Assembly (NCBI RefSeq): GCF_053078305.1
Contig: NZ_CP166879.1
DNA length: 64,000 nt
Direction: 5' to 3' (one strand)
Of the stretch, positions 28,969 to 31,900 are shown in pieces (positions within the stretch are counted from its first letter, which is position 1; each line of letters starts with the position of its first letter). Position numbers: made by a program.

Positions 28969-31900
28969 TGATTGTTTTACCGCCTGATGGGCGAAGAGAA
29001 AGAACGAGTAAAAGGTCGGTTTAACCGGCCTTTTTATTTTGTGATATGTATGAAGTACTTTGGAAGTATAAGTCCGTAACTTGTCTCGATGTAGATATAC
29101 TGCACAACTTGTTTACAGTATGAGCAAACAATAATTATCATTAAAATTCTTCTTGACCGTTTTACTCCAACTCCCTATAGTAGCGCCCCGTTGCCACCCA
29201 TGAGGTTTGGCAGCAAAACAATTTGGTGAGGTGTCCGAGTGGCTGAAGGAGCACGCCTGGAAAGTGTGTATACGGCAACGTATCGGGGGTTCGAATCCCC
29301 CCCTCACCGCCATATTTAAAGAAGAGCTCGTACGAAAGTGCGAGCTTTTTTTTCGCATTTTATCTGTCTGTACGGCAGTGAACATGGTGGGCGGGTGGAG
29401 TATGTTACCTGTGAATTTCTAAGCTGCCTGTACGGCAGTGAACACAAATACTACACGTTTAGCCCGTTGTTAATAAAGCAAAACCATCTCATTTTCCTGC
29501 TACCACCCTTTTTTTATCCTTACCTTACCGCAGCACTAATTATCAACAACTTACCATCATCATCAAAAAAAGGGTCTGAACCTCCTCCCCCATAAATAAA
29601 AAGTCCGTAACCTCTTTCGAGATTACGGACTTCACCAACCTACTTAACAATCAGATTAATGCGCTGCTTCCGCCTTGTGCTTTTGTGCACTCTGGAATCC
29701 GTAAGTCAGCTCATTTTTCTCTTTATCCAGCGCGACGGTGACCTGACCGCCGTCCACCAGCGAACCAAACAGCAGTTCGTTGGCAAGCGGTTTTTTCAGG
29801 TTGTCCTGGATGACACGCGCCATCGGACGTGCGCCCATTGCCCGGTCGTAACCTTTCTCGGCCAGCCAGTTACGCGCTTCCTGGCTCACTTCCAGCGAAA
29901 CACCTTTCTGATCCAGCTGAACCTGCAACTCGACGATGAATTTATCCACCACCTGATGGATCACGTCAGTTGACAGATGATCGAACCAGATAATGTTGTC
30001 GAGACGGTTACGGAATTCCGGTGTAAAGATCTTCTTGATCTCTTCCATCGCATCGGTGCTGTTATCCTGGTGGATAAGACCAATGGATTTACGCTCAGTT
30101 TCCCGTACCCCGGCGTTGGTGGTCATCACCAGCACCACGTTACGGAAGTCCGCTTTGCGTCCGTTGTTATCGGTCAGCGTACCGTTGTCCATCACCTGCA
30201 ACAGAATATTGAACACGTCCGGGTGCGCTTTCTCGATTTCGTCCAGCAGCAGCACCGCATGTGGATGCTTGATGACCGCATCAGTCAGCAAACCGCCCTG
30301 ATCAAAACCAACGTATCCCGGAGGCGCACCAATAAGACGGCTGACGGTATGGCGTTCCATATACTCGGACATATCAAAGCGCAGAAGCTCAATGCCCAAA
30401 GCTTTCGAAAGCTGTACCGTCACCTCTGTTTTCCCGACCCCGGTAGGGCCGGCAAACAGGAACGAACCAACCGGTTTATGTTCGTGACCTAAACCTGCAC
30501 GCGCCATCTTAATGGCTTCAGTCAGCGCCTCAATAGCTTTATCCTGACCGAAGACCAGCATTTTCAGGCGATCGCCGAGGTTTTTCAGGGTATCGCGGTC
30601 ACTCTGAGAAACACTCTTCTCTGGAATGCGTGCAATACGGGCCACCACGGACTCAATATCCGCCACATTTACGGTTTTCTTGCGTTTGCTTACCGGCATC
30701 AGGCGTGCGCGAGCGCCCGCTTCGTCGATAACATCAATCGCTTTATCCGGCAGATGACGATCGTTAATGTATTTCACCGCCAGCTCTACCGCCGCACGCA
30801 CCGCTTTTGCGGTATAACGCACGTCGTGGTGCGCTTCATACTTCGGTTTCAGGCCATTGATGATTTGAACAGTTTCTTCGATCGACGGTTCAGTAATATC
30901 AATTTTCTGGAAGCGACGCGCCAGAGCACGGTCTTTCTCGAAAATGTTGCTGAACTCCTGATAGGTTGTCGAACCAATTACGCGAATTTTACCGCTGGAG
31001 AGCAACGGTTTGATTAGGTTAGCCGCATCGACCTGACCACCAGACGCTGCACCCGCACCGATAATGGTGTGGATCTCATCAATAAACAGGATGCTGTTAG
31101 TGTCCTGCTCCAGCTGCTTGAGCAACGCTTTAAAACGTTTTTCAAAGTCGCCGCGATATTTTGTGCCCGCTAACAGAGAACCGATATCGAGAGAGTAAAT
31201 CGTACAGTCAGCCATCACTTCCGGCACATCGCCCTGAACAATTCGCCAGGCAAGACCTTCTGCAATCGCGGTTTTACCGACACCAGATTCCCCCACCAGC
31301 AGCGGGTTGTTTTTACGGCGACGGCAGAGAACCTGAATAGCACGCTCCAGCTCCTTCTCACGACCAATCAGTGGGTCGATTCCGCCCACGCGCGCAAGCT
31401 GATTCAGGTTCGTCGTGAAATTCTCCATACGTTCCTCCCCACCAGCTTGTTCTTCGCTGTTTGGCTGGCTGCCAGGATCAGAAGACTGTGTCGGCTCGTC
31501 TTTACGCGTGCCATGAGAGATAAAGTTCACCACATCGAGACGGCTGACTTCATGTTTACGCAACAGATATGCCGCCTGCGACTCCTGTTCGCTAAAGATA
31601 GCGACCAGAACGTTTGCACCGGTAACCTCATTGCGACCGGAGGACTGGACATGGAAGACCGCACGTTGCAGTACACGCTGAAAACTCAGCGTCGGCTGTG
31701 TGTCGCGCTCCTCTTCACTGGCAGGCAGAACGGGTGTGGTTTGTTCAATAAAGGCTTCCAGTTCCTGACGGAGCGCAACCAAATCCACAGAACACGCTTC
31801 CAGCGCCTCCCGGGCAGATGGGTTACTGAGCAGCGCCAGTAACAAGTGCTCGACGGTCATAAACTCATGACGGTGCTCGCGCGCTCTGGCGAAAGCCATA

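What the first reader, a model, noticed from the sequence alone, without database searches (positions are those of the whole stretch)
29364..29444. 21-bp direct repeat pair downstream of tRNA-Ser serW
CTG(T/C)CTGTACGGCAGTGAACA occurs twice, 60 bp apart (29364-29384 and 29424-29444), each with a short internal dyad, just after the serW terminator. tRNA 3' flanks are frequent integration or regulatory sites; these could be protein binding sites or a scar of a former insertion.
Basis: seen in the sequence. Interest (0 to 1): 0.25.

Follow-up and report, generated by a model that had tools for sequence, protein, structure and literature searches.

The report
Orphan type I-F CRISPR array, anti-cas1 spacer
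The "21-bp repeat pair" is the well-known leftover type I-F CRISPR array of E. coli (two repeats, one spacer, no cas genes). Its single spacer targets the cas1 gene of the very CRISPR-Cas system the strain lacks, so it is a real feature but one already described.

Summary
The repeat pair is real: 20/21 identical, 60 bp apart, and no shuffle gave two hits.

Read on the minus strand it is a minimal CRISPR array:
- Repeat 1 (29443..29416) is GTTCACTGCCGTACAGGCAGCTTAGAAA, the exact E. coli type I-F consensus (Rfam CRISPR-DR4, 50 bits, E 2e-10).
- A 32-nt spacer lies at 29415..29384.
- A degenerate terminal repeat (29383..29356) abuts the serW terminator.
- An AT-rich leader (29444-~29599) is homologous to the leader of the clpA-side array in a cas-positive strain.

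No I-F cas genes are in the window. The spacer matches cas1f of I-F-positive E. coli at 30-31 of 32 positions, next to the I-F PAM (CC). The same spacer is in K-12 and REL606.

In ten cas-less strains sampled, all 17 spacers at this locus match I-F cas genes. This reproduces the published "anti-CRISPR / anti-cas orphan CRISPR3/CRISPR4 array" (Touchon & Rocha 2010; Almendros et al. 2016).

It is not a tRNA integration scar or an operator pair. Novelty: already known. Interest: low.

The parts
29416..29443 (-). CRISPR repeat 1 (leader-proximal), GTTCACTGCCGTACAGGCAGCTTAGAAA, exact type I-F consensus
   Evidence: Rfam CRISPR-DR4 RF01317 at 50.1 bits (gathering 35), E 2e-10. Identical to 'Repeat2' of Touchon & Rocha 2010, Table 1. 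Identical to 10 of the 13 repeats in the two arrays of I-F+ strain L001. The RNA hairpin folds at -8.6 kcal/mol.
29384..29415 (-). 32-nt spacer TTCACAGGTAACATACTCCACCCGCCCACCAT (anti-cas1f)
   Evidence: Matches 30/32 inside cas1f of LF82 and AH21G053 with a 5' CC PAM. Matches 31/32 in E. coli E69 cas1f, also with CC. An identical spacer is present in K-12 and REL606.
29356..29383 (-). Degenerate terminal repeat GTTCACTGCCGTACAGACAGATAAAATG (leader-distal)
   Evidence: Rfam CRISPR-DR4 at 20 bits, below the gathering score. It has 6 mismatches to the consensus, mostly in the last 8 nt. The ending ...CAGATAAAATG is conserved in all 10 cas-less strains sampled. The hairpin is weakened by G17A, -1.4 kcal/mol.
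29444..29599 (-). CRISPR leader (62% AT) between the clpA terminator and repeat 1, with a weak promoter-like site TTGATG-16-GATAAT at 29566..29539
   Evidence: blastn gives 92.6% identity over 242 bp (window 29415-29655) to the stretch between the cas1f-side array and clpA in the I-F+ strain L001. AT is 0.62 versus 0.48 for the whole window. The promoter is only a consensus match.
29225..29312 (+). serW, tRNA-Ser(GGA); neighbour, convergent with the array
   Evidence: ARAGORN; Rfam tRNA.
29318..29353 (+). serW intrinsic terminator, which abuts the terminal repeat
   Evidence: Terminator scan. Homology to the I-F+ haplotype ends just after this terminator.
29600..29633 (-). clpA intrinsic terminator, upstream boundary of the leader
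   Evidence: Terminator scan.
29656..31932 (-). clpA (758 aa), flanking core gene
   Evidence: ORF list and translation; annotation of homologous loci.
28753..28971 (+). infA, flanking core gene
   Evidence: ORF list; annotation of homologous loci.

Best explanation
This is the orphan type I-F CRISPR array of E. coli. It is called CRISPR3 by Touchon & Rocha and 'orphan CRISPR4' by the Mojica group. It reads on the minus strand as leader, 28-bp repeat, 32-bp spacer, degenerate terminal repeat, and it has no cas genes beside it.

Its only spacer is a copy of a segment of the I-F cas1 gene that carries the correct PAM.

Proposed working (steps 1-3 are inferred here and reported experimentally by others):
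1. The leader drives constitutive transcription of a short pre-crRNA.
2. This RNA is inert in the cas-less cell.
3. If a mobile element brings in a type I-F cas operon, Cas6f cuts the repeat hairpins. That would release a 60-nt crRNA, CUUAGAAA-spacer-GUUCACUGCCGUACAGACAG.
4. The Csy complex is then guided to the incoming cas1f. Cas2/3 degrades the incoming DNA, or mismatches trigger primed adaptation against it.

The array therefore acts as latent immunity against acquiring the cognate CRISPR-Cas system. Shown here: the anatomy, the homology, the spacer-protospacer-PAM match and the population pattern. Not shown here: transcription, processing and interference.
For: - Repeat identity: Rfam CRISPR-DR4 on the minus strand at 50.1 bits, E 2e-10. 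It is identical to the published E. coli I-F repeat and to the repeats flanking cas1f..cas6f in strain AH21G053.
- Spacing: the 60-bp period equals 28 + 32.
- Orientation: the degenerate repeat lies at the end away from the leader. The stretch from repeat 1 to the clpA stop is 92.6% identical over 242 bp to that of a cas-positive strain.
- Orphan status: no I-F Cas protein is encoded in the 64-kb window, where tblastn gave only chance-level hits.
- Target: the spacer matches cas1f at 30/32 with a CC PAM in L001 and LF82, and at 31/32 in E69 cas1f with the single mismatch at position 6. The PAM definition comes from PMC3506596.
- Population: the spacer is in about 2,300 of 5,426 E. coli genomes and cas1f in only 241. 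All 17 spacers in 10 sampled cas-less loci match cas1f, cas3f, csy3 or cas6f with 5 or fewer mismatches, and 15 of 17 carry a CC PAM.
- Literature: Touchon & Rocha 2010, PMC2886076. A review summarising Almendros et al. 2016, PMC8616872, reports that native orphan arrays are constitutively expressed and elicit interference and priming against plasmids carrying I-F cas genes.
Against: - The terminal repeat of this allele has G17A, which puts a C.A mismatch in the Cas6f hairpin: -1.4 versus -8.6 kcal/mol, no better than shuffles. Processing and Csy assembly on this single-spacer transcript might be impaired.
- Against the commoner cas1f allele (LF82 type), one of the two mismatches is at seed position 4. 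That favours priming over direct interference.
- The leader promoter is only a weak consensus match. This window carries a rare leader allele, about 10% divergent from K-12.
- Whether the strain lacks I-F cas genes elsewhere in its genome cannot be seen from a 64-kb window.
- The Almendros 2016 paper itself could not be read, so which alleles were tested is unknown to me.
Confidence: 0.9

Rival explanations
1. It is the same orphan I-F CRISPR array but now a functionless, neutrally decaying relic. It is left from loss of the cas operon (self-targeting spacers having selected for cas loss) and has no present role.
For: The terminal-repeat hairpin is weakened. The leader is unusually polymorphic among strains, at roughly 8-15% differences (18-32 of 220 aligned columns). 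There is a seed mismatch to the common cas1f allele. cas genes are decaying even in a cas-positive strain, where cas6f and csy2 are pseudogenes in L001. Touchon & Rocha attribute the idea that acquiring these spacers selected for cas loss to Diez-Villasenor et al..
Against: Leader-proximal repeats are perfectly conserved in every sampled strain, and spacers are retained that all target cas genes with correct PAMs. The spacer is present in about 2,300 genomes across distant lineages. Touchon & Rocha argue that this retention exceeds neutral expectation. Interference and priming by native orphan arrays have been reported experimentally.
Confidence: 0.25
2. It is an attachment-site scar (attL/attR remnant) of an integrative element that used the 3' flank of tRNA-Ser serW.
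For: The location is just downstream of a tRNA gene. I recall serW/serX being integration hot spots in some E. coli, but I did not check this. Strain PS10-3 does carry a 179-bp insert here that duplicates the serW 3' end.
Against: The repeats share no sequence with the serW 3' end, whereas the PS10-3 insert shows what a true tRNA-end duplication looks like. The repeats are identical to CRISPR repeats. The segment between them is a 32-nt cas1f-derived spacer. No integrase or island is present, and the copy number varies in 60-bp steps among strains.
Confidence: 0.01
3. The two copies are DNA operator sites for a transcription factor controlling serW, clpA or a hidden small gene.
For: Each copy contains a dyad, and TGT-N10-ACA resembles a weak CRP-like half-site arrangement. 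That resemblance is my reading of the sequence, not a test.
Against: The sites lie downstream of both convergent genes' terminators, not at a promoter. The sequence is fully accounted for by the CRISPR repeat. Other strains carry 2-4 copies with unrelated intervening spacers.
Confidence: 0.01

Closest known systems
E. coli orphan type I-F array: CRISPR3 'anti-CRISPR' of Touchon & Rocha 2010; 'orphan CRISPR4 array with anti-cas spacers' of Almendros et al. 2016
   Same: Same locus (between clpA and infA/aat), the same 28-bp repeat, the same modified terminal repeat, and a single spacer matching cas1 of the absent I-F system. The spacer is identical to that of K-12 and REL606.
   Different: Nothing essential differs. 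This window has a rare leader allele: at least 99% identical in only 7 of 5,426 genomes. It also has A rather than T as the base next to repeat 1.
Active type I-F CRISPR-Cas locus of E. coli (LF82, ED1a, AH21G053, E69): CRISPR - cas1f-cas3f-csy1-csy2-csy3-cas6f - serW - CRISPR
   Same: Identical repeat, a homologous leader next to clpA, 32-nt spacers and the CC PAM.
   Different: No cas genes, one spacer instead of 5-36, no second array between infA and serW, and a different terminal repeat. The serW allele also differs by a compensatory T-stem swap.
Regulatory mini-arrays / cr-like RNAs (CreR; Shmakov et al. 2023) inside CRISPR-cas loci
   Same: A two-repeat, one-spacer unit with a degenerate second repeat whose spacer is directed at the system's own cas locus.
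   Different: Those have short spacers with seed-only complementarity to a cas promoter, and they repress transcription within a cas-positive locus. Here the spacer is full length (32 nt), matches a cas1f coding sequence almost completely, and sits in a cas-less genome. An example of the true regulatory type was seen in L001 between cas3f and csy1.

Membership tests
Type I-F CRISPR array | 28-bp direct repeats matching the I-F repeat family | tested here: met
   Repeat 1 scores 50.1 bits against Rfam CRISPR-DR4 (gathering 35) and is identical to the published E. coli consensus. Repeat 2 keeps 19 of the first 20 nt.
Type I-F CRISPR array | Repeats regularly interspaced by unique spacers of about 32 bp | tested here: met
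   One 32-nt spacer gives a period of 60. Other strains extend the same array in 60-bp steps. With a single spacer, regularity rests on the comparison with other strains.
Type I-F CRISPR array | Repeat transcript forms the 5-bp stem / 5-nt loop hairpin recognised by Cas6f | tested here: inconclusive
   Repeat 1 forms the hairpin at -8.6 kcal/mol. Repeat 2 has a C.A mismatch and folds at -1.4 kcal/mol. Cas6f binding is not testable here.
Type I-F CRISPR array | AT-rich leader next to the first repeat; degenerate repeat at the distal end | tested here: met
   The leader is 62% AT. The stretch from repeat 1 to clpA is 92.6% identical over 242 bp to that of a cas-positive array, and the degenerate repeat lies at the serW end.
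Type I-F CRISPR array | Adjacent cas1-cas3f-csy1-4 genes | tested here: not met
   tblastn of the six L001 Cas proteins against the window gave only chance-level hits. The array is orphan, which is the defining state of the subclass below.
Orphan anti-cas CRISPR array of E. coli (Touchon & Rocha 2010; Almendros 2016) | Located between clpA and infA in a strain without I-F cas genes at that locus | tested here: met
   infA 28753-28971, serW, array, then clpA 29656-31932, with no cas genes. The rest of the genome is not visible.
Orphan anti-cas CRISPR array of E. coli (Touchon & Rocha 2010; Almendros 2016) | Spacer matches a cognate I-F cas gene next to a functional PAM | tested here: met
   cas1f at 30/32 and 31/32, with a CC PAM. 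PAM as defined in PMC3506596.
Orphan anti-cas CRISPR array of E. coli (Touchon & Rocha 2010; Almendros 2016) | Array is transcribed and, when I-F Cas proteins are supplied, causes interference and primed adaptation against cas-carrying DNA | not testable with these tools
   Reported for native orphan arrays in the review PMC8616872, which cites Almendros 2016. The primary paper is not held.
tRNA-associated integration scar (att site remnant) | Direct repeat includes a copy of the tRNA 3' end and brackets foreign DNA or an integrase | tested here: not met
   The repeats share no sequence with serW. The 32 bp between them is a cas1f-derived spacer.

The most novel reading that the evidence does not exclude
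The K-12-type allele seen here has a terminal repeat with a broken Cas6f hairpin and a rare, diverged leader. It may no longer work as an anti-cas guide. It could instead have a Cas-independent role, for example a stable minus-strand RNA between the convergent serW and clpA terminators, or a decoy or guide exploited by Cas6f-encoding mobile elements such as I-F CRISPR-associated transposons or phages.
Probability: 0.04. Interest if true: 0.5.

Novelty: already known. Interest (0 to 1): 0.1.

Why it matters
This adds nothing new to biology. The element, its locus, its repeat and the cas1-targeting spacer were described in 2010, and interference and priming were reported experimentally in 2016.

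It matters for annotation. None of the ten cas-less loci I fetched annotates this array as a CRISPR, and in the one case with any feature overlapping it the label is a hypothetical protein (L011). A raw-sequence reader could easily take it for an operator pair or an att scar. The check also re-confirms the published pattern on a much larger genome set (5,426 complete E. coli genomes).

Tried and rejected
- **Protein-binding motifs.** I looked at the 21-mer by eye for CRP, LexA and PhoP-type arrangements. Nothing was convincing, and the question became moot once the Rfam hit appeared.
- **tRNA integration scar.** Rejected: no tRNA-end duplication in the window. PS10-3 shows what one looks like.
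- **A second relic array between infA and serW.** None found. Only two I-F-like repeats exist in the whole 64 kb at 9 or fewer mismatches.
- **The 20-nt direct repeat bracketing serW and the array** (29070-29089 / 29601-29620). I tested whether it marks a larger duplication. There is no extended homology, and 6 of 300 shuffles reach the score. I treat it as probably chance.
- **Scan of one genome per species** (GTDB representatives) for the 26-nt spacer core. It found only E. coli E69, where the match is the cas1f protospacer, and a MAG contig that is E. coli-like. There is no evidence for the spacer outside E. coli at exact-match level.
- **Almendros et al. 2016.** The paper is not held.
- **Plus-strand RNA fold across both copies.** z = -2.1. 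This is explained by the two palindromic repeats pairing and was not pursued.

Full report
**Observation.** The sequence shows CTGTCTGTACGGCAGTGAACA at 29364-29384 and CTGCCTGTACGGCAGTGAACA at 29424-29444, 60 bp apart start to start. With up to three mismatches the pattern occurs nowhere else in the 64-kb window. It was expected 0.02 times, and none of 100 dinucleotide-preserving shuffles gave two hits. The pair lies between the intrinsic terminator of tRNA-Ser(GGA) serW (tRNA 29225-29312, terminator 29318-29353, plus strand) and the terminator and stop codon of the convergent clpA gene (terminator 29633..29600, CDS 29656-31932, minus strand).

**What it is.** A scan of 28500-30200 against Rfam placed family CRISPR-DR4 (RF01317) on the minus strand at 29443..29416, with 50.1 bits against a gathering score of 35 and E 2e-10. 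A sub-threshold second copy (20 bits) lies at 29383..29356. The first hit also passes in a whole-window gathering-threshold scan.

Read on the minus strand, the copies are:
- Repeat 1: GTTCACTGCCGTACAGGCAGCTTAGAAA.
- Repeat 2: GTTCACTGCCGTACAGACAGATAAAATG.
- Between them, a 32-nt spacer: TTCACAGGTAACATACTCCACCCGCCCACCAT.

The 60-bp period is therefore 28 + 32. Its "internal dyad" is the 5-bp stem and 5-nt loop hairpin of the repeat, which folds at -8.6 kcal/mol in repeat 1. Repeat 1 is letter-for-letter the "Repeat2" consensus that Touchon & Rocha give for the E. coli CRISPR3/CRISPR4 arrays flanked by clpS and aat.

**Comparison with a cas-positive strain.** A megablast of 28700-29700 against 5,426 complete E. 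coli genomes matched 5,425 of them. K-12-derived strains were 98.6% identical and strain PS10-3 100% identical, so the window is E. coli.

One hit, strain AH21G053 (locus L001), carries the full type I-F system in this interval. Its order is infA, CRISPR, serW, cas6f-csy3-csy2-csy1-cas3f-cas1f, CRISPR, clpA. Of the 13 repeats in its two arrays, 10 are identical to repeat 1 of the window.

By blastn, the stretch from repeat 1 to the clpA stop (29415-29655) is 92.6% identical over 242 bp to the sequence between the cas1f-side array and clpA in L001. Within it, the 156 bp at 29444-29599 (62% AT, against 48% for the whole window) are the leader.

That fixes the orientation: leader next to clpA, degenerate repeat at the far end, transcription on the minus strand. 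Homology to the cas-positive haplotype resumes only at the serW terminator. tblastn of the six L001 Cas proteins against the window gave only chance-level hits. The array is orphan.

**The spacer.** A blastn of the 32-mer against the E. coli genomes hit 2,578 genomes:
- 1,432 exact matches, including K-12 derivatives and B strain REL606, all in unannotated DNA at this locus.
- 888 with one mismatch, for example O157:H7.
- 258 with two mismatches. The examples listed (LF82 and others) lie inside the annotated cas1f gene.

In L001 the protospacer is at 23533-23564, antisense to cas1f, with mismatches at spacer positions 4 and 6. It is immediately preceded by CC. Almendros et al. 2012 define the E. 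coli I-F PAM as GG on the complementary strand at the leader-proximal end of the protospacer, which is the same thing.

A scan of one genome per bacterial species for the 26-nt spacer core found two loci. One is the cas1f gene of E. coli E69, where the protospacer (CC-TTCACTGG...) differs from the window's spacer only at position 6. The other is an E. coli-like MAG contig with the identical orphan array. Position 6 is one of the every-sixth positions reported not to contribute to pairing in I-F complexes (passage quoted).

cas1f itself is present in only 241 of 5,426 genomes.

**Variation among strains.** I fetched ten cas-less loci spanning the identity range and parsed their arrays.
- They hold one to three spacers, in 60-bp steps.
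- All ten leader-proximal repeats are the exact consensus.
- All terminal repeats end in ...CAGATAAAATG, with A or G at position 17.
- All 17 spacers have their best match in an I-F cas gene of L001 (cas1f, cas3f, csy3 or cas6f) with 1-5 mismatches, and 15 of 17 sit next to CC.

The serW-clpA interval is not invariant. It varies exactly as a CRISPR array does, and its content is dedicated to the cognate cas genes.

The orphan junction (serW terminator plus terminal repeat) is found in at least 3,221 genomes at 80% or more coverage. The leader is found in 5,202 genomes.

**How it most likely works.** The anatomy and the spacer-target relation are shown above. The mechanism is taken from the literature.

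Touchon & Rocha (2010) noted that CRISPR3 arrays in genomes lacking Ypest (I-F) cas genes contain only spacers matching Cas1, Cas3 and Csy2 of that subtype. They proposed an "anti-CRISPR" role that blocks invasion by elements carrying a functional system.

The Mojica-group review states three things, citing Almendros et al. 2016:
- Native orphan arrays are constitutively expressed.
- They trigger primed acquisition of further spacers.

Applied to this window, the steps would be as follows:
1. Minus-strand transcription from the leader. The only candidate promoter I found is a weak consensus match, TTGATG-16-GATAAT at 29566..29539.
2. Cas6f cleavage. It would give a 60-nt crRNA, CUUAGAAA-spacer-GUUCACUGCCGUACAGACAG.
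3. Targeting. The crRNA would direct the incoming Csy complex and Cas2/3 to the incoming cas1f.

**Caveats for this allele.**
- The terminal repeat carries G17A, which breaks one stem pair. It folds at -1.4 kcal/mol, no better than shuffles. Because the 3' hairpin of the only crRNA comes from this repeat, processing could be impaired.
- Against the LF82-type cas1f allele there is a seed mismatch at position 4, which would favour priming over cleavage.
- The leader is polymorphic across E. coli, at 18-32 differences in 220 aligned columns among 12 sequences. The window's allele is rare: at least 99% identical in only 7 genomes.

These points keep alive the rival reading that the array is a neutral relic, which I rate at about 0.25. 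The identity of the element is not in doubt.

**Rejected readings.**
- An att scar at the tRNA 3' flank is excluded. The repeats share nothing with serW. By contrast, strain PS10-3 has a genuine 179-bp insertion here that duplicates the last ~19 nt of serW plus its terminator.
- Operator sites are not needed. The sites lie downstream of both terminators, and their copy number varies between strains.

**Comparison and novelty.** The element is a member, indeed a copy, of the published E. coli orphan I-F array, with the same spacer as K-12. It differs from active I-F loci by lacking cas genes and the second array. It differs from regulatory mini-arrays (Shmakov et al. 2023) by having a full-length, near-perfect spacer against a coding sequence. 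Novelty: already known. Interest is low. The result is useful mainly as a correct annotation of a feature that none of the ten cas-less records I fetched labels as a CRISPR.

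Noticed in passing
L001 19365-19444 (E. 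coli AH21G053, cas3f-csy1 intergenic region; not in the window): A degenerate mini-array lies antisense to the cas genes. It has two I-F repeat-like sequences, CCCAAACTGCCTTGAGCAGCTTAGAAA and GTAAACTGCCGTACAGGCAGCTCGCGCC, around a 25-nt spacer TAGAGGTATCTCCGGATACGGACTT. The spacer matches a CC-flanked site at L001 19263, about 145 bp upstream of csy1, at positions 1-5 and 7-11 with the mismatch at position 6. None of 3,000 shuffled spacers did as well. It fits the autoregulatory I-F1 mini-arrays described by Shmakov et al. 2023.
   Followed up: partly
L002 757-878 (E. coli PS10-3; corresponds to an insertion after window ~29357): A strain otherwise 100% identical to the window carries a 179-bp insertion right after the serW terminator. 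The insertion ends with a second copy of the last ~19 nt of serW plus the terminator. RefSeq annotates it as 'RtT sRNA'. It looks like a tyrT/rtT-type tRNA-end repeat unit or a tiny att-type duplication.
   Followed up: partly
window 29444-29599: The CRISPR leader allele of this window is rare: at least 99% identical in only 7 of 5,426 E. coli genomes, and 90-95% in most. The 215-bp leader-to-clpA-stop interval differs from K-12 at 21 of 220 aligned columns, although the surrounding 1 kb is 98.6% identical. The intergenic stretch is a local divergence hot spot, perhaps from recombination.
   Followed up: partly
window 29070-29089 and 29601-29620; also 29070-29079 vs 29623-29632: A 20-nt direct repeat (17/20, AAGTCCGTAAC...) brackets serW, the array and the leader. 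The downstream copy is one arm of the clpA terminator, so the upstream copy is also a 10-nt perfect inverted match to the other arm. There is no extended homology, and 6 of 300 shuffles score as well. It is probably chance.
   Followed up: partly
window 29225-29312 vs L001 15116-15203: The serW allele of the cas-positive haplotype differs from the window by a compensatory swap in the T-stem (GGGGG/CCCCC versus CGGGG/CCCCG). The upstream region also differs. So the I-F-positive and cas-less infA-clpA intervals are alternative haplotypes, not a simple deletion of one from the other.
   Followed up: no
L001 15314-15868 and 16891-17814: In the cas-positive strain AH21G053, cas6f and csy2 are annotated as pseudogenes with internal stops. 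This suggests an I-F system in decay.
   Followed up: no
L013 1-12277 (MAG 'Proteobacteria bacterium' B43T3L14 contig): The contig is 98% identical to the window from clpA through the orphan array to serW. It then diverges exactly at the 5' end of the tRNA. This may be an assembly join through another copy of this tRNA gene (I recall serX being identical to serW, but did not check), or E. coli contamination of the MAG.
   Followed up: partly
window 56863-56943 (minus strand): Rfam hit above the gathering score to naRNA4 (CssrE), the nucleoid-associated non-coding RNA derived from a REP element: 66.4 bits, E 1.6e-9.
   Followed up: no
L011 838-1236 (E. coli JNE25-001): RefSeq annotates a 'hypothetical protein' CDS on the plus strand running across a four-repeat orphan array. 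This is almost certainly a false gene call over CRISPR repeats. PGAP's 'RtT sRNA' label in some strains also sits next to this array.
   Followed up: no
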